Shown here in pieces: positions 2,944 to 12,876 of a stretch of 14,244 nucleotides of DNA (position 1 is the first letter of the stretch; each line of letters starts with the position of its first letter). Below the pieces are notes generated by a model. It made no database searches. It was not told where the DNA came from and was given only the letters and a program-made list of their open reading frames with translations. Source of the stretch: a virus (taxonomy: Duplodnaviria; Heunggongvirae; Uroviricota; Caudoviricetes); the IMG/VR virus record IMGVR_UViG_3300029080_000085, one strand, 5' to 3'. A program made the translations under genes and the position numbers.

Positions 2944-3138
2944 TCATTGCTGAAGGCGTCTGTAACAGCCGAACTGGTAATCTGCCAGCCCCGCCATAAC
3001 CAGCTGGGTCAGTATTAACTGACAGCGTTCGCGTGAAAGGTATGTGTTTTGTGCAATCTCCCCGACTGTTGCCGGTTCGATGCTTAATTCATTAAAAACA
3101 ACTTTCGCCGTTTCTGTCATATCTTGCTGTTTTAGCAT
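2944..3138 (-). CDS. Small putative winged-helix-like DNA-binding protein (64 aa)
   Basis: Preferred start ATG 3138 preceded by GAAGGGAAAAAG; the longer ORF-track start at 3162 lacks an RBS. Segment ATVGEIAQNTYLSRERCQLILTQLVMAGL resembles a recognition helix and wing. Fold assignment is inference. Confidence 0.35.
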   Translation of the reverse strand: MLKQQDMTETAKVVFNELSIEPATVGEIAQNTYLSRERCQLILTQLVMAGLADYQFGCYRRLQQ

Positions 3139-3257
3139 GTCTTTTTCCCTTCTGGTTAACATGACATACCAATAACTCTTGTCTAAAAAGCCAGCAAGAT
3201 AAACAGTCAGTATTCACGACCACCAGCGTGTTTACCGTACTGCACCAATGTTTAATT

Positions 3258-3281
3258 TATAAAAAAACCGCGAGAACGCGG
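3258..3281 (-). terminator. Intrinsic terminator downstream of the 176-aa moron ORF
   Basis: Perfect stem CCGCG-AGAA-CGCGG (3268-3281) followed on the minus strand by a 7-nt U-run (complement of A-run 3261-3267). Confidence 0.6.
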
Positions 3282-3319
3282 TAAGTATTGTTAAAAAACC
3301 AACAGTAATTTCACTCAAC

Positions 3320-3850
3320 TTATTTAATACATTCTTTTGCTTGCGCATAATAAATTTTATGAGTATTAGCAAGCTTAACGAAGTTATACTTAACTGCCCC
3401 TAACAGGGTTCCAACTCTTGTATGCCCTTCCATTAAATGGAGCCCTGTTGTATTACTTTTCAGCAAAGCTCGATCTATAAAAAATGGTGGTTCGCACCAT
3501 GTGCCAAAATTACACCAATGCGCTTTTATTTCATCATCCATAAATACATCACCTTTACGGGTCATGTAATCTTCAACGACCTCATGCAAAAAATCAGGGC
3601 AAGTAGCATTATCCCCGATAGTTAAAAAGTTTTTAGTGGGAAGTTCAATCAATTTCCATTCAATTTGGTCAATATCAAGATCCCCATAAAGCTTCTGAAA
3701 TCTGTCATCGCCTACCAATCCATAATAAATCTCCTGAATTACAGGAGAGGGGGCAATGATAGAATATTGCTCACGAAGTATTCTTTCAGCCTCAGGAGCT
3801 TCAAATATGGTTCTTTCTGAGAAAATAGGCAGAAGATCTCGGTATAACAT
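3320..3850 (-). CDS. Hypothetical 176-aa protein; AT-rich moron between Q and the lysis genes
   Basis: Clean ORF, visibly AT-rich relative to flanking phage genes, with its own downstream terminator and a possible SD (GGGG) 6 nt upstream. No family recognised; contains acidic/lysine clusters (GDLDIDQIEWK, GDVFMDDEIK). Confidence 0.6.
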   Translation of the reverse strand: MLYRDLLPIFSERTIFEAPEAERILREQYSIIAPSPVIQEIYYGLVGDDRFQKLYGDLDIDQIEWKLIELPTKNFLTIGDNATCPDFLHEVVEDYMTRKGDVFMDDEIKAHWCNFGTWCEPPFFIDRALLKSNTTGLHLMEGHTRVGTLLGAVKYNFVKLANTHKIYYAQAKECIK

Positions 3851-4004: not shown

Positions 4005-4757
4005 TTATCTTGTCACTTTTCTCAATTGCGCTTCAGCATATGCTTCTTCCTGCCAGCACTTTGTAACCAGTTTATCAATGACGTCTGCATATCCTTTGTA
4101 CCACTGATAATCCGTCAGGTCTGTTACCAGATTCTGGACATGATGCCGCGCCAGTGTGGTTGGTAAACGGCTAAACCGATTTCCATTGCAACGCCCACAA
4201 ATCTTATAAACAGGCGTGCCATGAAGCCGGGTCCTTTTTTCATCCAGGACAATACCTTTACCCTTACACCCTCTGCACGCTGTGCTGACTTCTCCCTTAC
4301 CATGACAATGCTGACATAGTTCCTTCACCCACTCTTCCTTGATAACAGATTCCCCGCTTCTGGAGTGTTTCACCACTTCGCGCAATACATTATGAAATCC
4401 AGTACCAGCACAATGCTCACAGCGAGCCTTACTTGCCGCAGACCTGGAATAATCAGCAAAGGCAAAATTCACAAGGTAAGGAATAATCTGTAGCCGGGTT
4501 TCTTCACTCAATTTATTCAATGTCGGGTTATCCAGTGCCATCGCGTAATTGAGCAGACCTTCAATCGCAAACTGAGGATCCTGAACACCAACTTTTGCCA
4601 GGAATAAGGCAAACCCAAGCGGTGCTTTCGACTGCACCATCCCCTGCGCAGCCATCACATCCGTAATTGTTAAACCACCAGAGCCTGTCGCCGGTGCGTC
4701 ATCGCTCAATTTTGGAGATTTTGGGGAGTAATATTTCGGTAAGGCTTCAAGGTTCAT
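4005..4757 (-). CDS. Q: Late-gene antiterminator Q (lambda Q family)
   Basis: Strong recalled similarity to lambda Q: YYSPKSPKLSD...TDVMAAQGM, FAFADYSRSAASKARCEHCAGTG, CGRCNGNRFSRLP, C-terminal ...KVTR; CxxC zinc-finger pairs. Start at MNLEA (4757) preferred, with SD GGAGAA. Confidence 0.85.
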   Translation of the reverse strand: MNLEALPKYYSPKSPKLSDDAPATGSGGLTITDVMAAQGMVQSKAPLGFALFLAKVGVQDPQFAIEGLLNYAMALDNPTLNKLSEETRLQIIPYLVNFAFADYSRSAASKARCEHCAGTGFHNVLREVVKHSRSGESVIKEEWVKELCQHCHGKGEVSTACRGCKGKGIVLDEKRTRLHGTPVYKICGRCNGNRFSRLPTTLARHHVQNLVTDLTDYQWYKGYADVIDKLVTKCWQEEAYAEAQLRKVTR

Positions 4758-4770
4758 GCTCGTTCTCCAC

Positions 4771-5766
4771 TTACGCCAGTACACCTATTGCCAGCGCACG
4801 ATCGATAAAACGAAATATCAGCTCCAGCTGGGAGCCATACTTCTCTTCAAATGCCACGGTATCCGCATGCAGCTCGTCGTGATGCTTTCTGCACAAAGGC
4901 AACACAAAAAGGTCATGCGCTTTTGTTCCCATTCCACCCTGACCGTGACCTATCAGGTGGTGGGGATCATCAGCGGGCTTTCCACAACATGCACACGGCT
5001 GTGTCTTAACCCAGCGCGTGTACTTTTCATTAACCCAGCGGCGACGTTTTGGGCGTAACATAAAAGACTCCGGCGACTCCGGATCCACTTTCAGCGCCAG
5101 CACCTTTTTCGCCTTATCCTGGATGATGCTGGTGGCAGGAACCGAAGGCACAAGGTCACTTTCCCGGGTGACAGACGGCACAACAGGCTTCGGTAATCTC
5201 AGTGCCTTACGGGCTGCACTTTCCGGTAAGGCGTCCGCCAGGTCATTACGAATCAGCCACCAGCACAGTTCCGGCATTGTCACAACGTGACTGTCATCAA
5301 AACCGAGATCCCGACGCACAACAGACAACACCCAGCGGGCACAGTTATCCGTTGCCATTGATTCCAGCCGTTCCGTGAACTGATCGCGCAGCTGGTTATC
5401 GCAGTGCCAGCACAGACGGATTGCGCCCGGAGCGTGTCGCATTGTTGTCATGTTCTCGCTGTGCCAGTCGGAATGAAGCCACTGGCAGCCTTTTTCACGA
5501 AGTAACCAGCTTTCAAGACATTCCACGCCACCAGCACGACGGATCACTGCCTCATTGCGGAACACGGCCCGAACGGCAGGATCATCCGCCAGCGGTTGTG
5601 ATGCCGCGGGAACGGCACCACTGGCGAAAGATGAATAACGTTCCGGCTCAGGCTCCAGCAGGACACGCCCCTGCATAAACAAGGGCATCAGCTCTGAACC
5701 TGGCCTGAACAATACGATCCCCATACGCGGGGCAATTTCAGGGGTCAGTAGTGCTCTCACGGTCAC
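4771..5766 (-). CDS. DUF968-like (YdfU-like) protein with C-terminal HNH-like Cys/His motif
   Basis: 331-aa ORF; C-terminal CACCGKPADDPHHLIGHGQGGMGTKAHDLFVLPLCRKHHDELH; position just upstream of Q as in Qin (ydfU-quuQ). Likely GTG start, 1 nt after the upstream stop. Confidence 0.65.
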   Translation of the reverse strand: MTVRALLTPEIAPRMGIVLFRPGSELMPLFMQGRVLLEPEPERYSSFASGAVPAASQPLADDPAVRAVFRNEAVIRRAGGVECLESWLLREKGCQWLHSDWHSENMTTMRHAPGAIRLCWHCDNQLRDQFTERLESMATDNCARWVLSVVRRDLGFDDSHVVTMPELCWWLIRNDLADALPESAARKALRLPKPVVPSVTRESDLVPSVPATSIIQDKAKKVLALKVDPESPESFMLRPKRRRWVNEKYTRWVKTQPCACCGKPADDPHHLIGHGQGGMGTKAHDLFVLPLCRKHHDELHADTVAFEEKYGSQLELIFRFIDRALAIGVLA

Positions 5767-6596: not shown

Positions 6597-6986
6597 TCAG
6601 GCAGCTGCACCCGCCGTTTTCTCGTACTTACTGATAGTGATCTCGACCTTCCCTTCCGGGATAACCGGTCCCCACTCCACCAGCATTCTTTTCACCTGAC
6701 TGTCGTCTTCCCACACCCCCGCGTGGGTCAGGGCGTCAAACAGCGCCTTGTTATAGTTGTCCAGATCGCGGATCCTGTTATCCGGAGGAAACAACACGAT
6801 CTCCACTGAAGCAGGTGCCGACGTTGGTTTCGGCAGACGACGTAACTGCTCAACTATTGCTGCGCACGCCGCGCTCTGGAATTTTCGCCCCGCCGCGCTT
6901 ATCAGGCTCTTACCAGCAAACGCCCCTTTGTTGGGGTGTCGCCAGTACGTGTTCACGCTGGGCGGAAAAGGCAGGATCAGCTTCAT
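6597..6986 (-). CDS. rusA: Holliday junction resolvase RusA
   Basis: 129-aa ORF with RusA hallmarks: LPFPPSVNTYWRH near the N-terminus, RDLDNYNKALFDALTHAGVWEDDSQV catalytic region; ATGA overlap with upstream ORF. Confidence 0.85.
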   Translation of the reverse strand: MKLILPFPPSVNTYWRHPNKGAFAGKSLISAAGRKFQSAACAAIVEQLRRLPKPTSAPASVEIVLFPPDNRIRDLDNYNKALFDALTHAGVWEDDSQVKRMLVEWGPVIPEGKVEITISKYEKTAGAAA

Positions 6987-7253
6987 ACTTTCAGGCCCCT
7001 CTCATGTAACCAGTGGGTTGCACGCAGCCTTGCGTTTTCCTCACCGGCAAGCAGTGAGCGGATAATCCCGACCGCCTCGCTGTCGTCGTCCTTCACCGCG
7101 GTATGAAGCGTGATGCCCCGGGCCACGCCACGCTTTATCGTGATGACGCCTTTTTTCTCCAGTGCGCGAAGATGCTCCACCGCTGCATTCACTGAACGGT
7201 ACAGGAAGCGCAATCAGTTGCGAGCGACGGTAGTGTGTTGTTAAACTGTTCAT
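6983..7253 (-). pseudogene. Frameshifted/truncated LexA-like winged-helix DNA-binding gene; possible deletion scar at the expected replication-module position
   Basis: ATG 7253 overlaps the CII-like stop (ATGA) and encodes MNSLTTHYRRSQLIA...; a second frame beginning after a TGA encodes LRFLYRSVNAAVEHLRALEKKGVITIKRGVARGITL, matching the LexA helix 3 and wing, and ends ATGA-coupled to rusA. No single frame spans both parts. Confidence 0.35.
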
Positions 7254-7813
7254 GCGTTAGTTTCTCCACAGTCACGACACGCCACGGCGCCCGGAGCTGC
7301 ACACTCGCGGGCGTCATTACTTTCTGAAATGCAAAAAATTTTGTAGACCAGTGCTGCATGCTCCTGCAGCTTCGAAATTGAGAGGTACAACTCGTCGTTA
7401 ATTGCTGTCTTCTCATGCGGTTCCACTACACCGTCTTCAATTGCTGAACGAATCTGTTTTGAATAACTGCCGATCTGTTCAATGACCTCCAGCAGGCGTT
7501 GGTTGATATCGGCGTTGTCCACATCCTCGACGTCAGGAAGAGACACAAAGACGCCATTTGCAGACTGCGCCACAGCATCAGCAATGAAGTGAGTGCCACC
7601 AGCACGCTGTAAAACCATTGCCCATCCCAGCGGGAAAATCTGATCGCCATCTGCACGAAGGCGGTTGAATAAAGCGTTTTCTGTTACATCGAGCCAGTCA
7701 GCCGCTTCAGCGTAACCACCCGGCAACGCCGCGATAGTTTTTCTGACAGCTTTCACGTACCACTCAGGCTGTTTTTCTATTTTCCAGTGATGCTTACCCA
7801 CGATTAGCCTCAT
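7250..7813 (-). CDS. CII-like regulatory protein (YdaT / phage 186 CII-like family)
   Basis: 187-aa ORF directly downstream of the cro-like gene; central region (LFNRLRADGDQIFPLGWAMVLQRAGGTHFIADAVAQ) resembles 186-CII-type regulators as recalled. C-terminal tail may be extended by rearrangement. Confidence 0.5.
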   Translation of the reverse strand: MRLIVGKHHWKIEKQPEWYVKAVRKTIAALPGGYAEAADWLDVTENALFNRLRADGDQIFPLGWAMVLQRAGGTHFIADAVAQSANGVFVSLPDVEDVDNADINQRLLEVIEQIGSYSKQIRSAIEDGVVEPHEKTAINDELYLSISKLQEHAALVYKIFCISESNDARECAAPGAVACRDCGETNA

Positions 7814-7844
7814 CGTTCTGTGGTTAAAAATTGAAAGTGTTCTG

Positions 7845-8045
7845 CTAATCTTTCGGATAGATATCCGGTCTTAAGTCAGATTTCGTAATTGCACCTGACG
7901 TGCATTGCTCAAGTTTTTTAGCCAGCACAAAACTGGCTTTTTTATAGCCATTGAAAACCAGCCGTAAGTAGCCAGGTGTTGAGCCAACTTTTCCGGCCAA
8001 CTCGCCCTGCTGTTCTTTGGTTAAAGAGTCCCAATACGCTTTCAT
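7845..8045 (-). CDS. Cro-like HTH regulator (YdaS family)
   Basis: 66-aa ORF MKAYWDSLTKEQQGELAGKVGSTPGYLRLVFNGYKKASFVLAKKLEQCTSGAITKSDLRPDIYPKD with the LRPDI motif; SD GGAGGT 9 nt upstream; divergent from the cI-like gene. Confidence 0.7.
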   Translation of the reverse strand: MKAYWDSLTKEQQGELAGKVGSTPGYLRLVFNGYKKASFVLAKKLEQCTSGAITKSDLRPDIYPKD

Positions 8046-8135
8046 ACAATATGTACCTCCGGTGTACATATTACATGATTGAAATGAACCTTCAAGATAC
8101 TTGTACCTTAACGGTACAAGGGTTTTAATTTCGTT
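8046..8135. promoter_or_regulatory. Divergent immunity control region (OR-like): two perfect operators TGTAC-N7-GTACA plus candidate pR and pRM
   Basis: Operators at 8052-8068 (TGTACCTCCGGTGTACA) and 8102-8118 (TGTACCTTAACGGTACA). Candidate pR on minus strand: TTGAAG (8095-8090), 16 nt, TAATAT (8073-8068). Candidate pRM on plus strand: TTGTAC (8101-8106), 17 nt, TTTAAT (8124-8129), placing the start near the cI ATG. Confidence 0.5.
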
Positions 8136-8810
8136 ATGAAAACAATCCATGACATCCGGCGGTCTAACGCCAGAAAACTGAGAGATGGTGTTGGCGGGAA
8201 TTCTTCCTTTGCCACTATGATTGATCGCGAGCCAACCCAGACCAGCAGGTTTATGGGAGATGGTGCTACTAAAAATATCGGTGACAGCATGGCACGACAC
8301 ATCGAAAAATGTTTCGACCTGCCTGTCGGATGGCTCGATCAAGAACACCAGACAACGAACATCACAAAAAAACCTGATGTTTCAATCACTAATAAACAAA
8401 TCACATTAGTCCCTGTCATATCATGGGTACAGGCCGGAGCATGGAAAGAAGTTGGATATTCTGAGGTTGATTTGAGCACAGCAGAAACGTATCCCTGCCC
8501 TGTACCCTGTGGGGAAATGACTTATATCTTGCGGGTGATAGGTGATTCAATGATTGATGAGTACCGCCCGGGAGACATGATTTTTGTCGATCCTGAAGTA
8601 CCTGCCTGCCACGGTGACGACGTTATTGCATTGATGCACGATACAGGTGAAACCACCTTCAAAAGGTTGATAGAAGATGGGACACAGCGTTATCTCAAAG
8701 CGTTAAACCCAAACTGGCCTGAGCCTTACATTAAGATCAACGGTAATTGCTCTATAATTGGTACAGTGATTTTCTCAGGAAAACCAAGAAGATACAAAAT
8801 CAAAGCCTAA
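8136..8810 (+). CDS. cI: CI-like prophage repressor with C-terminal LexA-type S24 peptidase domain
   Basis: 224-aa ORF; C-terminal S24 signature (VIGDSMIDEYRPGDMIFVD ... FKRL) with Ser/Lys dyad context and candidate cleavage site QAG-AW; N-terminal DNA-binding region; no SD upstream. Confidence 0.85.
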   Translation: MKTIHDIRRSNARKLRDGVGGNSSFATMIDREPTQTSRFMGDGATKNIGDSMARHIEKCFDLPVGWLDQEHQTTNITKKPDVSITNKQITLVPVISWVQAGAWKEVGYSEVDLSTAETYPCPVPCGEMTYILRVIGDSMIDEYRPGDMIFVDPEVPACHGDDVIALMHDTGETTFKRLIEDGTQRYLKALNPNWPEPYIKINGNCSIIGTVIFSGKPRRYKIKA

Positions 8811-8822
8811 TCAATGTTTATG

Positions 8823-8846
8823 AACCTGCTTCGGCAGGTTTTTTTA
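8823..8846 (+). terminator. Intrinsic terminator after cI
   Basis: ACCTGC-TTCG-GCAGGT hairpin followed by TTTTTTT. Confidence 0.6.
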
Positions 8847-8849
8847 TAC

Positions 8850-8893
8850 TTGACAATGTACCTTTGAGATACATAATGTACCCAAGCGAAACA
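8850..8893 (+). promoter_or_regulatory. pL-like promoter with overlapping operator half-sites (OL-like)
   Basis: TTGACA (8850-8855), 16-nt spacer, CATAAT (8872-8877); operator-like TGTACCTTTGAGATACA (8857-8873) inside the spacer and a weaker TGTAC-N7-AAACA at 8877-8893. Confidence 0.5.
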
Positions 8894-8966
8894 ACGAACA
8901 GGCAGGACGCCCACGAAGTAGCCGCCTGGGGCATATGAAGTCCAGGATGATTCGTTAGCAACAAAA

Positions 8967-9000
8967 AAGCGCCCTACAGGACGCTTAGCTCTTTAACAAT
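8967..9000 (+). promoter_or_regulatory. nut-like antitermination element: hairpin plus boxA-like sequence in the pL leader
   Basis: GCTCTTTAACAAT (8988-9000) matches the rrn-type boxA core (TGCTCTTTAACAAT as recalled); preceded by hairpin AAGCG-N10-CGCTT (8967-8986). Confidence 0.45.
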
Positions 9001-9044
9001 CTGGTCCCCATCAACAAGTAACTGATAACTTGAGGAGATGTGAA

Positions 9045-9251
9045 ATGCACAAAACAGAACCCAAAATCGTCGCGCCTGGCTACACAGATGAGGAAATTTA
9101 TGAGTGGATGACAAAGAAGCTGGCAGCTATAAACCAGCTTCGTGAAGTGCTGTCTTATCGACAGGAAACAATAGACTCCTTAAAAAAACTGGATCAGGAA
9201 ATCACGGTTTTATCACAGGATGTTACTTTAGATATTGTGCAGACAAATTAG
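9045..9251 (+). CDS. Hypothetical 68-aa acidic protein, first ORF of the pL-like transcript (not N-like)
   Basis: SD GAGGAG 6 nt upstream of ATG 9045; predicted helical/coiled segment (LAAINQLREVLSYRQETIDSLKKLDQEITVL); lacks an arginine-rich motif. Confidence 0.45.
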   Translation: MHKTEPKIVAPGYTDEEIYEWMTKKLAAINQLREVLSYRQETIDSLKKLDQEITVLSQDVTLDIVQTN

Positions 9252-9657
9252 GATCCCATTCATTTTCGTCAAAATCATCAAAGTGATGAATTTGTGATCT
9301 CCAGTCTCGATAATCTAAAAATTTCTGGGCGGTTACGCTTATTTTATCAAGTGTGAGTTCATCCTGAATTGAAAGAAGAAGTTCATCAAATTTCATCTCA
9401 TTAATCTGTTTTGGCATCCAGTGATGCTTCATCAGAATAAGGTGAACCAGAGCCTTTTTCCCATTCAACTGATTATAGGGAGTGCCGAATTTCTTCCGGT
9501 GCTCATGTAAGACAAGGTCCAAAAGAGTAAGTAATGTTGCCCTTGATTCAACTTTGCTTATTTCGACTGATGACACTACCCCACTGATTTCAATGCCCCG
9601 ATACTTTCCAACATTTTCACAGTGGGATTTGTACAGCGTATAGATATTACCGGACAT
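9223..9657 (-). CDS. Hypothetical 144-aa protein; AT-rich accessory gene antisense to the pL operon
   Basis: SD AAGGA 7 nt upstream of ATG 9657; visibly AT-rich; His-rich segments (LVLHEHRKK, MKHHWMP, RDWRSQIHH); 3' end overlaps the convergent 68-aa ORF by 29 bp. No family recognised. Confidence 0.6.
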   Translation of the reverse strand: MSGNIYTLYKSHCENVGKYRGIEISGVVSSVEISKVESRATLLTLLDLVLHEHRKKFGTPYNQLNGKKALVHLILMKHHWMPKQINEMKFDELLLSIQDELTLDKISVTAQKFLDYRDWRSQIHHFDDFDENEWDPNLSAQYLK

Positions 9658-9672
9658 TTCTTTTCCTTTTGC

Positions 9673-9721
9673 GTTGTTGGGGATAACCAGATTAACCGAA
9701 TCCTTGTTGTTGGGGAATAAC
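9673..9721. repeat. Two direct repeats GTTGTTGGGGA(A)TAAC upstream of the 144-aa gene
   Basis: Copies at 9673-9687 and 9706-9721, 33 bp apart start to start; on the minus strand they read GTTAT(T)CCCCAACAAC, resembling a DnaA-box-like TTATCCCCA. Confidence 0.4.
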
Positions 9722-9943
9722 TAGGTCCACCTCGCCTGATGTGGCTAAAAGCAGGCACATAACAGCTAAGTATTTTCAACCAGAGAGAATCCTTAGCGTT
9801 GTGGTGAATGCGGCTCAGCGCACGCGGGTTAAGGTTGAGGCTGACAGTCGACCTTCTGTGGATACCCACCCGCCTGGTGTGCAACCTTCGCCAGGCACCG
9901 GGAGGCACCCGGCACCACAACTTTATGCTGTGTGTAGTCTTGG

Positions 9944-9988
9944 CGGTACCAGCTTGTACCCTTGCTTCCGGCTGGTACCGTCCTTTTT
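9944..9988 (+). terminator. Strong hairpin with U-tract inside the GC-rich block (candidate tL-type terminator)
   Basis: Perfect 10-bp stem CGGTACCAGC / GCTGGTACCG (9944-9953 / 9971-9980), 17-nt loop, followed by TCCTTTTTA. Confidence 0.45.
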
Positions 9989-10201
9989 ACAAAACAGAGA
10001 AGAGCATCACCGGACGACGGGCTCATAACCCAATCCATCCGGGCGGCTGCCACCGCAGGTGTTCTTCTCTGTTTTGTGGAGAAACTAACCGCCCCTACGG
10101 GGGCATTTATGGAAATGTAATTGACTCAATAATCGCCGGACGGTGAGGGCTTCCTTTTACCGGAATTCAGCGCGGTGCAGCGCATATACGTGGAGAACAA
10201 A

Positions 10202-11396: not shown

Positions 11397-11746
11397 TGGA
11401 GCCATACAGCCTCACACTCGATGAGGCCTGTCATTTTCTCAAGATATCCAGACCGACTGCCATTAACTGGATACGCACAGGGCGTCTTCAGGCAACACGC
11501 AAAGATCCCACTAAGAATAAATCTCCTTACCTCACAACACGACAAGCCTGCATTGCGGCTCTTCAGTCTCCGCTGCATACTGTCCAGGTGAGCGCGGGTG
11601 ATGGCATAACAGAGGAAAGAAAATGTCACTCTTCCGCAGAGGTGAAATATGGTACGCCAGTTTCACATTGCCGAACGGTAAAAGATTTAAACAGTCTCTT
11701 GGAACAAAGGACAAAAGGCAGGCGACAGAACTCCATGACAAGCTAA
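11396..11746 (+). CDS. xis: Excisionase (P22-type Xis)
   Basis: 116-aa [43 protein letters not shown]..., winged-helix Xis-like; SD AAGAGGTGA; 3' end overlaps the int start, as in lambda/P22. Confidence 0.75.
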
Positions 11747-12786
11747 AGGCTGAAGCATGGCGGGTCAGCAAACTTGGTGAAATACCTGATATAACGTTCG
11801 AGGAAGCTTGTGTCAGGTGGCTTGAAGAGAAAGCACATAAAAAATCACTGGACGATGACAAAAGCCGGATCGGATTCTGGCTTCAACATTTCGCAGGAAT
11901 GCAACTAAGAGACATTACTGAATCAAAAATTTATTCAGCAATGCAGAAAATGACGAACCGGCGTCATGAGGAAAACTGGAAACTCAGGGCAGAAGCATGC
12001 AGAAAAAAAGGGAAACCTGTTCCAGAATACACGCCAAAACCAGCGTCCGTTGCAACGAAGGCTACGCATCTTTCATTTATAAAGGCCCTACTAAGAGCCG
12101 CAGAGCGTGAATGGAAAATGCTGGATAAGGCACCAATTATTAAAGTGCCTCAACCAAAGAATAAACGGATCCGCTGGCTGGAGCCCCATGAAGCACAAAG
12201 GCTGATTGATGAATGTCCGGAGCCATTAAAGTCTGTTGTTGAATTTGCACTGGCAACAGGCTTAAGACGCTCGAACATCATCAACCTTGAATGGCAACAA
12301 ATAGATATGCAGCGCCGGGTGGCATGGATAAACCCGGAAGAGAGTAAATCAAACCGCGCAATTGGCGTTGCGCTGAATGATACTGCATGTCGCGTATTGA
12401 AAAAACAAATCGGGAATCATCACCGTTGGGTATTTGTGTACAAGGAAAGCTGTACCAAACCAGACGGAACGAAAGCGCCAACAGTAAGGAAGATGCGGTA
12501 TGACGCAAACACAGCCTGGAAAGCGGCGCTGAGACGGGCTGGTATTGATGATTTCAGATTTCACGACTTGAGACACACCTGGGCAAGTTGGCTGGTTCAA
12601 GCCGGAGTCCCGTTGTCAGTGTTACAGGAAATGGGAGGCTGGGAGTCTATCGAAATGGTTCGTCGATATGCTCACCTTGCACCTAATCACCTTACCGAAC
12701 ACGCACGGCAAATAGACTCGATCCTGAACCCATCGGTCCCAAATTTGTCCCAGTCAAAAAATAAGGAAGGTACTAATGATGTGTAA
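11623..12786 (+). CDS. int: Tyrosine integrase (P22 Int-like) targeting tRNA-Thr
   Basis: 387-aa ORF beginning [48 protein letters not shown]; catalytic region [39 protein letters not shown] (R...HxxR...Y); ends 14 nt from the tRNA. Confidence 0.9.
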
Positions 12787-12800
12787 CTTATTGATTTTAA

Positions 12801-12876
12801 TGGTGCCGATAATAGGAGTCGAACCTACGACCTTCGCATTACGAATGCGCTGCTCTACCAACTGAGCTATATCGGC
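12801..12876 (-). tRNA. thrW: tRNA-Thr (anticodon CGU), thrW-type; prophage attachment site
   Basis: Reverse complement is GCCGATATAGCTCAGTTGGTAGAGCAGCGCATTCGTAATGCGAAGGTCGTAGGTTCGACTCCTATTATCGGCACCA: cloverleaf-compatible, anticodon loop ATTCGTAAT, encoded CCA end. Confidence 0.9.

What the first reader, a model, noticed from the sequence alone, without database searches (positions are those of the whole stretch)
6983..7253. Replication module apparently missing; a frameshifted LexA-like winged-helix remnant bridges the CII-like gene and rusA
In lambdoid genomes the interval between cII and the nin/rusA region normally carries the replication genes, typically well over a kilobase. Here only about 270 bp remain, encoding a LexA-like helix-3/wing peptide (NAAVEHLRALEKKGVITIKRGVARGI) split across two frames, with ATGA coupling to both neighbours. 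This suggests a deletion or fusion event, and a prophage that may be replication-defective (cryptic or helper-dependent).
Basis: partly seen in the sequence, partly recalled or inferred. Interest (0 to 1): 0.45.

Follow-up and report, generated by a model that had tools for sequence, protein, structure and literature searches.

The report
Deletion scar replacing prophage replication genes
The 270-base stretch is the scar of a roughly 2-kb deletion that removed the replication genes of an e14/SfIV-like prophage and fused the stumps of two unrelated genes out of frame, which is an ordinary way for prophages to decay.

Summary
Between the cII-like gene ymfL (7250-7801, minus strand) and rusA (6597-6986, minus strand) lie only 263 bp, read in two frames. 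This is not a frameshifted gene. It is a deletion junction at window 7197-7201, a 5-bp microhomology CGGTA. The first 19 codons of ymfM are fused out of frame to codons 37-108 of a 108-aa LexA-like winged-helix gene.

Compared with intact relatives, 1,836 bp (phage SfIV) or 2,531 bp (prophage of E. coli ES4) are missing. The lost DNA holds the rest of ymfM/DUF4222, the only O-like replication initiator with its iteron-like repeats, a PerC-like gene and, in ES4, a Dam gene. No replication gene remains in the window.

The junction occurs in 1 of 5,426 complete E. coli genomes, also at thrW, and in no sequenced phage. The prophage is therefore almost certainly replication-defective, although that is inferred and not tested.

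A side result may matter more. In relatives, the deleted O-like gene has a nucleotide-precise, recurrent deletion endpoint (GGT-TA-CCC). It joins at least 19 different partners, including both K-12 cryptic prophages e14 and CPS-53. This is unexplained.

The parts
7250..7801 (-). ymfL, the cII-like regulator. It is intact, and its stop codon overlaps the ymfM start (ATGA).
   Evidence: Pfam Phage_CP76 E 1.4e-13. phrog_101 'CII-like transcriptional activator' E 2e-70. Called as a 183-aa gene on the identical contig L005.
7197..7253 (-). ymfM stump: the first 19 codons (MNSLTTHYRRSQLIALPVP) of the e14/SfIV ymfM (gp40) reading frame.
   Evidence: These residues are identical to the N-terminus of K-12 e14 YmfM and SfIV gp40. 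The DNA aligns with SfIV from window 7197 rightwards.
7197..7201 (.). Deletion junction: the 5-bp microhomology CGGTA. It is present at both parental sites and once in the product.
   Evidence: Three-way alignment of the window with the LexA-like side and the ymfM side of SfIV and ES4.
6983..7201 (-). Stump of the LexA-like gene: codons 37-108 plus the stop. It keeps the stretch that aligns to helix 3 and the wing of LexA, plus the 40-aa tail, and lacks residues 1-36.
   Evidence: The full-length 108-aa relatives (ES4 WP_000210170, SfIV gp43) match LexA_DNA_bind positions 1-65 (E 2.9e-19) and E. coli LexA residues 2-69 (PDB 1lea, E 7e-16). The remnant matches profile positions 37-65 only.
7041..7253 (-). 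Chimeric 70-aa ORF: 19 ymfM codons followed by 51 codons of the LexA-like gene read out of frame. It probably has no function.
   Evidence: Translation. No Pfam hit. All six nucleotide differences from the PCP06173 copy change the protein in this frame. The exact protein is found only on two contigs whose DNA is identical to the window.
6597..6986 (-). rusA, intact. Its start overlaps the stop of the LexA-like frame (ATGA).
   Evidence: Pfam RusA E 6e-15. The same overlap is present in intact relatives.
7845..8045 (-). cro-like gene (ymfT type), intact.
   Evidence: Called as a 66-aa gene on the identical contig L005, with a weak YdaS_toxin hit. Annotated as Cro/ymfT in relatives.
8136..8810 (+). 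cI-type repressor with an S24 peptidase domain, intact. The immunity region is therefore preserved.
   Evidence: Pfam Peptidase_S24 E 1.5e-26. Aligns with SfIV gp37 within the 98.3%-identical block 7197-10088.

Best explanation
Window 6987-7249 is the scar of an internal deletion in the early-right operon of an e14/SfIV-like lambdoid prophage integrated at thrW next to proA.

Recombination between two copies of the pentamer CGGTA joined codon 19 of ymfM to codon 37 of a 108-aa LexA-like winged-helix gene. One copy lay in ymfM and the other in the LexA-like gene, 1.8 to 2.5 kb apart. The mechanism could be replication slippage or microhomology-mediated end joining.

The event may have happened in one step or in two. 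In the two-step route, an earlier deletion first fuses the O-like gene to the LexA-like gene, and a 529-bp deletion between CGGTAC repeats follows.

The deletion removed:
- the rest of ymfM (the e14 SOS-inducible division inhibitor) and the overlapping DUF4222 ORF;
- the family's only replication initiator, an O-like HTH_36 protein whose gene contains seven 15-bp iteron-like repeats that are the presumed origin;
- a PerC-like regulator, and depending on the ancestor a Dam methylase;
- the first 36 codons of the LexA-like gene.

The fusion is out of frame. It yields a 70-aa nonsense chimera and a LexA-like stump with no start signal, and neither is expected to function.

Shown: the junction, the missing genes, the rarity of the allele, and its presence in independent assemblies.

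Inferred: the prophage cannot replicate on its own. The immunity region, int/xis, rusA, Q and the lysis genes remain, so induction would be abortive and the element is a cryptic prophage.
For: 1. Flank alignment. Window 6617-7201 matches SfIV (L003) 4586-5169 at 97.8%. Window 7197-10088 matches SfIV 7001-9892 at 98.3%. The 5-bp overlap is CGGTA, and 1,836 bp of SfIV or 2,531 bp of the ES4 prophage are absent.

2. Content of the missing interval in SfIV and ES4:
- YmfM/gp40.
- DUF4222 (PF13973, E 5e-19).
- O-like initiator (phrog_391, E 2e-134; HTH_36, E 5e-11) with a 15-bp x 7.3 tandem repeat.
- PerC-like gene (PF06069).
- Dam (PF05869), in ES4 only.
- The 5' third of the LexA-like gene.
The SfIV paper calls orf41-45 the replication module (PMC3851460).

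3. Frame arithmetic. 57 nt + 219 nt - 5 nt = 271 nt, which is not a multiple of 3.

4. Every window ORF scanned against Pfam or PHROGs, 19 in all, lacks a replication hit.

5. Rarity.
- The LexA-like 3' end joined to rusA is present in 2,183 of 5,426 complete E. coli genomes.
- The junction is present in one piece in only one genome, PCP06173, where PGAP already marks both stumps as partial pseudogenes.
- There are 0 junction matches in IMG/VR, JGI metagenomes and GTDB representative genomes.
- No phage record covers the region in one piece.

6. No sign of selection on the chimera. Its six nucleotide differences from PCP06173 are all non-synonymous in the chimeric frame, and there is no Shine-Dalgarno sequence before the TTG of the LexA-like stump.

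7. Signs of further decay.
- PCP06173 carries the same junction plus extra deletions, ymfL'::'yfdP and gp46'::terminase'.
- K-12 e14 shows the same kind of loss of this O-like gene.
Against: - Replication was not tested.
- The prophage continues beyond the window's left end, and a second replication system there cannot be excluded from sequence. However, the identical 11.7-kb contig ends at the same place, and intact relatives have only this one module.
- The window and PCP06173 share the junction but differ at 23 of 1,017 flanking positions, one of them 4 nt from the microhomology. The allele is therefore either old and overwritten by recombination, or it arose twice.
- One-step and two-step origins cannot be told apart.
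Confidence: 0.9

Rival explanations
1. A sequencing or assembly frameshift inside a single intact LexA-like gene.
For: Two overlapping frames, with a LexA-like match in only one of them.
Against: The upstream frame is ymfM, not a LexA-like gene. Residues 1-36 of the LexA-like protein are absent in every frame. About 1.8 to 2.5 kb is missing relative to intact relatives. The same junction is present in a complete genome (PCP06173) and in an ENA contig and a Logan contig.
Confidence: 0.01
2. A natural module variant of a viable phage: a short conserved gene sits here and the replication functions are encoded elsewhere or supplied differently.
For: The operon stays continuous, with ATGA overlaps at both ends. 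The DNA beyond the window's left end was not seen.
Against: The arrangement is found in 1 of 5,426 genomes and in no phage or IMG/VR contig. The 70-aa product is mostly an out-of-frame reading and is not conserved between the two carriers. No replication family is hit anywhere in the window. Sequenced phages of this group (SfIV, SfII, SfV, PhiR29 and others) hold the two halves of the query at separate places in their genomes, and SfIV carries the O-like gene between them.
Confidence: 0.03
3. A helper-dependent satellite (PICI-like) that lost or never had replication genes and uses those of a helper phage.
For: int, xis, the repressor and cro are intact, and there is no replication gene.
Against: The element keeps a full lambdoid late-control and lysis set (Q, holin, lysozyme, spanin start) and is collinear at 96-99% identity with complete phages apart from the deletion. 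The presumed origin (the iterons) is deleted along with the initiator, so a helper's initiator would have nothing to act on. Nothing satellite-specific, such as a primase-helicase or capsid-redirection genes, was found.
Confidence: 0.04
4. The scar results from the site-directed deletion process seen in relatives (the hot spot GGT-TA-CCC in the O-like gene) and not from a random microhomology event. A first deletion ran from the hot spot to the LexA-like CGGTA site. A second removed the remaining 529 bp between CGGTAC repeats.
For: The LexA-side endpoint is identical to that of the hot-spot deletions in LZHX12 and IMG/VR contig L013. L013 has the same immunity type, at 98.7% identity. That first-step junction and the ymfM site share the 6-bp sequence CGGTAC. 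Partner sites of the hot spot are enriched for (C)GG(N)TA, which both window sites fit.
Against: The window keeps no hot-spot sequence, so the intermediate is hypothetical. A single 5-bp microhomology event explains the data equally well. The flanking haplotypes do not single out LZHX12 or L013 as ancestors.
Confidence: 0.35

Closest known systems
Cryptic prophage e14 of E. coli K-12 (ymfK, ymfT, ymfL, ymfM, then the pseudogene oweE/ymfN)
   Same: It has the same immunity and early-right module: an S24 repressor, cro, ymfL and ymfM, with the 3' end of ymfL and the start of ymfM 100% identical to the window. It is also defective because a deletion destroyed the same O-like initiator gene.
   Different: In e14 the first 78 codons of the O-like gene survive and are fused to the terminase gene. 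ymfM is intact there and functional as the SfiC division inhibitor (bioRxiv 10.1101/2020.11.19.390815). In the window the O-like gene is gone entirely, ymfM is cut after codon 19, and rusA, Q and the lysis genes are retained. e14 sits in icd (from memory). This element sits at thrW.
Serotype-converting Shigella phages SfIV, SfII and SfV (viable relatives)
   Same: They are 97-98% identical over rusA, the LexA-like 3' part, ymfL, cro, cI, and the region through xis and int, with the same gene order. SfIV gives the undeleted state.
   Different: They carry the full interval gp40-gp43 (YmfM, O-like 'primosomal protein', PerC-like, LexA-like 'transcriptional repressor'). The window lacks 1,836 bp of it. 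It also lacks the yfdP-yfdQ block and has a different Q and lysis region.
LexA repressor N-terminal DNA-binding domain (PF01726; PDB 1lea, 1jhh, 3jso)
   Same: The intact 108-aa phage protein aligns to LexA residues 2-69 (E 7e-16). The remnant keeps the stretch that aligns to recognition helix 3 and the wing (helix assignment from memory of the LexA structure).
   Different: Neither the intact phage protein nor the remnant has the S24 self-cleavage domain. The remnant also lacks helices 1 and 2, so it should not fold as a winged helix. The function of the intact protein is unknown (phrog_362 is labelled 'transcriptional repressor' by annotation only).
Lambda O/P replication module
   Same: It occupies the same position in the early-right operon, between the cII-like gene and the nin/rusA-Q region. 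The initiator gene contains iteron-like repeats, as lambda O contains ori (lambda part from memory; repeats).
   Different: This family has one O-like protein (HTH_36 with a DnaD/primosomal-like C-terminus) and no P-like helicase loader gene. The 'normal' interval is about 2 to 2.5 kb and also holds regulatory genes (PerC-like and LexA-like).
Deletion hot spots at replication arrest or initiation sites (terB in E. coli; the nick sites of the M13 and pC194 origins; work of Bierne, Michel and Ehrlich, from memory)
   Same: This precedent applies to the side observation only. One deletion endpoint is fixed to the nucleotide next to origin-like repeats, and there are many variable partners with 2-6 nt of imperfect homology.
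   Different: No nickase or arrest protein is known for this phage family. The window itself no longer contains the hot spot. The link is an analogy, not a test.

Membership tests
LexA_DNA_bind winged helix (PF01726) | A complete domain of three helices plus wing (65 profile positions) | tested here: not met
   The remnant matches profile positions 37-65 only. Full-length relatives match 1-65 (E 2.9e-19) and LexA residues 2-69. The window holds a fragment of a family member, not a functional member.
LexA/S24 self-cleaving repressors | A C-terminal Peptidase_S24 domain | tested here: not met
   There is no S24 hit in the remnant or in the intact 108-aa relative. The prophage's true S24 repressor is the separate gene at 8136-8810.
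Lambdoid replication module | An O-like initiator gene with internal iterons between the cII-like gene and the rusA/Q region | tested here: not met
   It is present in SfIV, ES4 and at least 120 IMG/VR contigs. It is absent from the window, where no ORF hits a replication family.
Microhomology-mediated deletion | The same short sequence at both parental breakpoints, kept once in the product, with collinear flanks | tested here: met
   CGGTA is found at L004 9238 and 11769 and once at window 7197-7201. The flanks are collinear and in the same orientation.
Cryptic (defective) prophage | Loss of a function essential for lytic growth, judged against viable relatives | tested here: met
   The sole initiator gene and the iteron array are deleted relative to the viable phage SfIV.
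Cryptic (defective) prophage | Failure to replicate or produce phage on induction | not testable with these tools
   This needs mitomycin C induction with qPCR or plaque assay.
Programmed ribosomal frameshift gene | A two-frame arrangement that is conserved, with both parts belonging to one protein family | tested here: not met
   The two frames derive from different genes. The arrangement occurs in 1 of 5,426 genomes. The out-of-frame part is not conserved.
Hot-spot deletions of the O-like gene (e14/CPS-53 type) | One endpoint within GGT-TA-CCC of the O-like gene | tested here: not met
   The window junction joins ymfM to the LexA-like gene and no O-like sequence remains. Only the LexA-side endpoint is shared with hot-spot deletions.

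The most novel reading that the evidence does not exclude
The loss of the replication module here is one outcome of a stereotyped, sequence-directed decay pathway of e14/SfIV-like prophages.

A break or nick at one precise position of the O-like gene (GGT-TA-CCC, 76 bp from the iteron-like repeats) may mark the start site or a collapse site of in-situ replication from the prophage origin. It repeatedly seeds deletions to (C)GG(N)TA-like partner sites.

The prophage's own origin would then generate the lesions that inactivate it. This would explain why K-12's e14 and CPS-53 and at least 17 other elements are all broken at the same nucleotide. The window's scar would be a second-step derivative of such a deletion.
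Probability: 0.2. Interest if true: 0.55.

Novelty: new member of a known kind. Interest (0 to 1): 0.22.

Why it matters
The scar itself matters little. It shows that this thrW prophage is a decaying, replication-dead element that still keeps its immunity, integrase, RusA, Q and lysis genes. That is useful for annotation, because both ORFs should be marked as pseudogene fragments, and for predicting that induction will not yield phage. It also removes ymfM, the e14-type SOS division inhibitor.

The wider point is the recurrent, nucleotide-precise breakpoint in the same replication gene across many E. coli prophages, including two textbook K-12 cryptic prophages. If a defined mechanism causes it, it would give a concrete, testable route for how prophages are disarmed and domesticated.

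Tried and rejected
1. Frameshift within one gene. Rejected by translating both frames against YmfM and the full LexA-like protein.

2. A conserved short protein. The exact-sequence look-up found only two contigs, both with DNA identical to the window.

3. Junction searches in GTDB representatives, IMG/VR and JGI metagenomes all gave 0 hits.

4. A hairpin at the hot spot or at the window's parental sites.
- The DNA fold z-scores are -0.8 and -1.0 at the hot spot, which is unremarkable.
- The LexA site gives +0.6.
- Only the ymfM site folds better than shuffled sequence (z -3.3), and that alone explains nothing.

5. A BstEII-type restriction cut (the hot spot lies in GGTTACC). Rejected because the phage genomes hold many GGTNACC sites.

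6. RusA (cuts 5' of CC), type IA topoisomerase (C at -4), gyrase consensus, Dcm/Vsr at CCTGG, invertase quasi-sites and IS608-type TTAC cleavage. I compared each by eye with the junction sequences, using consensus sequences from memory. None fits all junctions, and none was tested rigorously.

7. A second deletion in the window (yfdP-yfdQ missing at 10088/10091). Its ends lie at two hairpin-like sequences and do not use CGGTA. It may be a module difference and not decay.

8. One search used a wrong IUPAC code (D includes the native A).

9. The e14 genome paper (Mehta et al. 2004) could not be retrieved. Two literature searches on e14, deletions and ymfN found nothing relevant.

Full report
**Context**

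The window is the regulatory half of a lambdoid prophage at tRNA-Thr thrW (12801-12876) next to proA. The genes run as follows:
- int (11623-12786, plus strand), xis and yfdR-type early-left genes;
- an S24 repressor (8136-8810, plus strand) and cro (7845-8045, minus strand);
- the cII-like gene ymfL (7250-7801, minus strand);
- the region of the finding;
- rusA (6597-6986), a KilA-N gene, a DUF968/HNH gene and Q (4005-4784);
- a DNA methyltransferase, holin, DUF1327, lysozyme and the start of a spanin.

The immunity and early-right genes are those of K-12 e14 and of Shigella phages SfIV, SfII and SfV.

**Checking the observation**

- The gap between rusA and ymfL is 263 bp.
- Two overlapping minus-strand ORFs in different frames fill it: 7041-7253 (70 aa) and 6983-7213 (76 aa, TTG start).
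- ATGA overlaps sit at both ends.
- The 76-aa frame matches Pfam LexA_DNA_bind, but only profile positions 37-65 (E 3.6e-6).
- The quoted LexA-like peptide lies wholly in that frame.
- The other frame starts MNSLTTHYRRSQLIALPVP, which is the exact N-terminus of YmfM of e14 and of gp40 of SfIV.

The 'two frames' are therefore two genes, not one frameshifted gene.

**What it is**

Local BLAST against intact relatives gives a clean picture.
- Window 6617-7201 aligns with SfIV rusA and the 3' two-thirds of gp43, the LexA-like gene of 108 aa.
- Window 7197-10088 aligns with the start of SfIV gp40 (ymfM), then ymfL, cro, cI and beyond.
- The two alignments overlap by five bases, CGGTA (7197-7201). 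Both parental sites carry this pentamer and the window has it once.
- The skipped DNA is 1,836 bp in SfIV and 2,531 bp in the thrW prophage of E. coli ES4, which has an extra Dam gene.
- 57 nt of ymfM plus 219 nt of the LexA-like gene minus the 5 shared bases gives 271 nt. The fusion is therefore out of frame.

By my own rough calculation, a microhomology of five or more bases at a random junction has a probability of about 0.004. The junction therefore has the signature of slippage or microhomology-mediated joining.

**What was lost**

- The rest of ymfM and the overlapping DUF4222 ORF.
- The only replication initiator of this phage group: 313-328 aa, HTH_36, phrog_391 'replication initiation O-like' at E 2e-134. 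Its gene contains a 15-bp x 7.3 tandem repeat that I take to be iterons and the origin, by analogy with lambda O (inference).
- A PerC-like regulator.
- In some relatives, a Dam methylase.
- Codons 1-36 of the LexA-like gene.

The SfIV paper assigns orf41-45 to the replication module (PMC3851460). ymfM is the e14 gene that causes SOS-inducible filamentation (bioRxiv 10.1101/2020.11.19.390815). Every window ORF that I scanned lacks a replication family hit.

**Is either stump functional?**

Probably not.
- The intact LexA-like protein aligns with LexA residues 2-69 (PDB 1lea, E 7e-16). The stump starts at residue 37. It lacks helices 1 and 2 (structure recalled from memory) and has no Shine-Dalgarno sequence before its TTG.
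- The 70-aa chimera is 19 YmfM residues followed by an arginine- and glycine-rich out-of-frame reading.
- Between the window and the only other carrier, all six nucleotide differences change the chimera's sequence.

**How common is it?**

- The LexA-like 3' end joined to rusA occurs in 2,183 of 5,426 complete E. coli genomes.
- A 101-bp probe across the junction is matched in one piece in one genome only. That genome is PCP06173, a seawater isolate from the Galapagos, and its copy is also at thrW. PGAP already flags both stumps there as partial pseudogenes.
- The junction is absent from 50,697 phage records as a single piece, from IMG/VR, from JGI metagenomes and from GTDB representative genomes.
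- Two public contigs that encode the same 70-aa ORF are 100% identical to the window over 11.6 kb and 5 kb. They confirm the sequence but represent the same lineage.
- PCP06173 differs from the window at 23 of 1,017 flanking positions and by 2.8% in proA. It has further deletions, ymfL'::'yfdP and gp46'::terminase'.

The allele is either old and overwritten by recombination or has arisen twice. Either way, it sits in elements that are decaying.

**Consequences (inferred)**

With the initiator and the presumed origin gone, the prophage cannot replicate on its own. The repressor, cro, ymfL, int, xis, rusA, Q and the lysis genes look intact, and the operon stays continuous. Immunity and perhaps excision should therefore persist, and induction would be abortive. 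Ribosomes on the chimera stop at 7041, 55 nt before rusA, so the original translational coupling of rusA to the LexA-like gene is lost. rusA has its own purine-rich stretch upstream.

**Side discovery in relatives**

Other deletions of this interval drew attention because their endpoints coincide.
- LZHX12 joins the same LexA-like CGGTA site to codon 78 of the O-like gene.
- PapRG-04-4 joins a PerC-like CGGTA site to that same O-like position.
- K-12 e14 joins the terminase gene to it.

Pattern scans gave the following.
- IMG/VR: 11 contigs with a non-native base immediately before TACCCTGG..., plus three e14-type contigs.
- Metagenomes: five more.
- Controls: identical scans at three positions 30 to 56 nt away found none.
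- Intact copies: at least 120 IMG/VR contigs have the intact site, and 79 of the 80 fetched are intact.

The partners map collinearly to many genes: PerC-like, LexA-like, KilA-N (two sites), DUF968 (two sites), holin, a lysis gene, terminase, and head, tail, baseplate and tail-fibre genes. K-12's other cryptic prophage, CPS-53, keeps the opposite side of the gene and is cut at the same TA.

That makes at least 19 distinct junctions within a 5-nt window, GGT-TA-CCC, which lies 76 bp from the iteron-like repeats. Partner sites are enriched for (C)GG(N)TA. GG sits just before TA at 7 of the first 10 mapped sites, against about 1 in 16 expected.

I could not explain this. There is no unusual hairpin. 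GGTNACC sites are common in these phages, so a BstEII-type cut is not the cause. Several enzyme consensus sequences recalled from memory do not fit all junctions. Precedents exist for fixed deletion endpoints at replication arrest or nick sites (terB, M13 and pC194 origins; from memory), so a break linked to the origin is my leading guess.

The window's junction does not include this site. It does share its LexA-side endpoint with the LZHX12 and L013 type. That junction and the ymfM site share CGGTAC, 529 bp apart. A two-step origin is therefore as plausible as a single 5-bp event.

**Verdict**

The 'frameshift' label is wrong. As a biological object it is an ordinary prophage deletion scar of the kind typified by e14, so interest is low. 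The recurrent breakpoint in the deleted gene, seen only in relatives, is the part worth following up.

Noticed in passing
L004 11240-11246 (O-like gene of the ES4 prophage); also L001 9603, L007 2320, L009 2976, L011-L024, L089, L145-L152. The site is not present in the window.: A nucleotide-precise recurrent deletion endpoint, GGT-TA-CCC, in the O-like replication gene, 76 bp from its 15-bp repeats. At least 19 different partner sequences are joined there, in both orientations. Three control positions 30-56 nt away gave zero junctions, and at least 120 intact copies exist in IMG/VR. Partner sites are enriched for (C)GG(N)TA. The mechanism is unknown.
   Followed up: partly
L009 2976 (e14) and L150 3101 (CPS-53), both from E. 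coli K-12 MG1655: K-12 carries the N-terminal 78 codons of this O-like gene in e14, fused to the terminase gene. It carries the C-terminal remainder in CPS-53, fused upstream of yfdP. Both are cut at the same TA, but the partners differ, so this is not a reciprocal exchange.
   Followed up: partly
window 10088-10091: Relative to SfIV, ES4 and LZHX12, the window lacks about 1.3 kb holding yfdP and yfdQ. The two ends lie at hairpin-like GC-rich sequences (GCCCCTACGGGGGC remains in the window). PCP06173, which shares the main junction, still has yfdQ, so this loss or module difference is independent of the main deletion.
   Followed up: partly
L002 (PCP06173) 9384-9914 and 1165: The only other genome with the same scar has 2.3% diverged flanks, 2.8% diverged proA, a different Q and lysis region, and two more internal deletions (ymfL'::'yfdP with TA microhomology, and gp46'::terminase'). 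The scar is either ancient with later recombination, or it is recurrent.
   Followed up: partly
L009 3199-3557; L003 6719-7057: The ymfM ORF (112 aa, annotated in K-12 and SfIV, no Pfam family) and a DUF4222 ORF (59 aa, PF13973 at E 5e-19, called by PGAP) overlap in different frames on the same DNA. Which product accounts for the published ymfM filamentation phenotype may deserve a check.
   Followed up: no
L004 11060-11168: A 15-bp tandem repeat (CAGATTTTGATGCGT, 7.3 copies, 90% matches) lies inside the O-like gene and encodes a repeated SKSDA-type peptide. The copy number differs between SfIV and ES4. It is presumed to be the iterons and origin.
   Followed up: no
window 2944-3850 (minus strand): Two genes of unknown function sit between Q and the DNA methyltransferase: 176 aa (phrog_8867) and 72 aa (phrog_331). 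This position is variable among relatives and looks moron-like.
   Followed up: no
L008 (E. coli 300033) 1884-2193: Another independent deletion of the replication interval, with different endpoints. The O-like gene is cut at L004 11297 and joined to the LexA-like gene at L004 9152. Loss of this module is therefore recurrent even away from the hot spot.
   Followed up: partly
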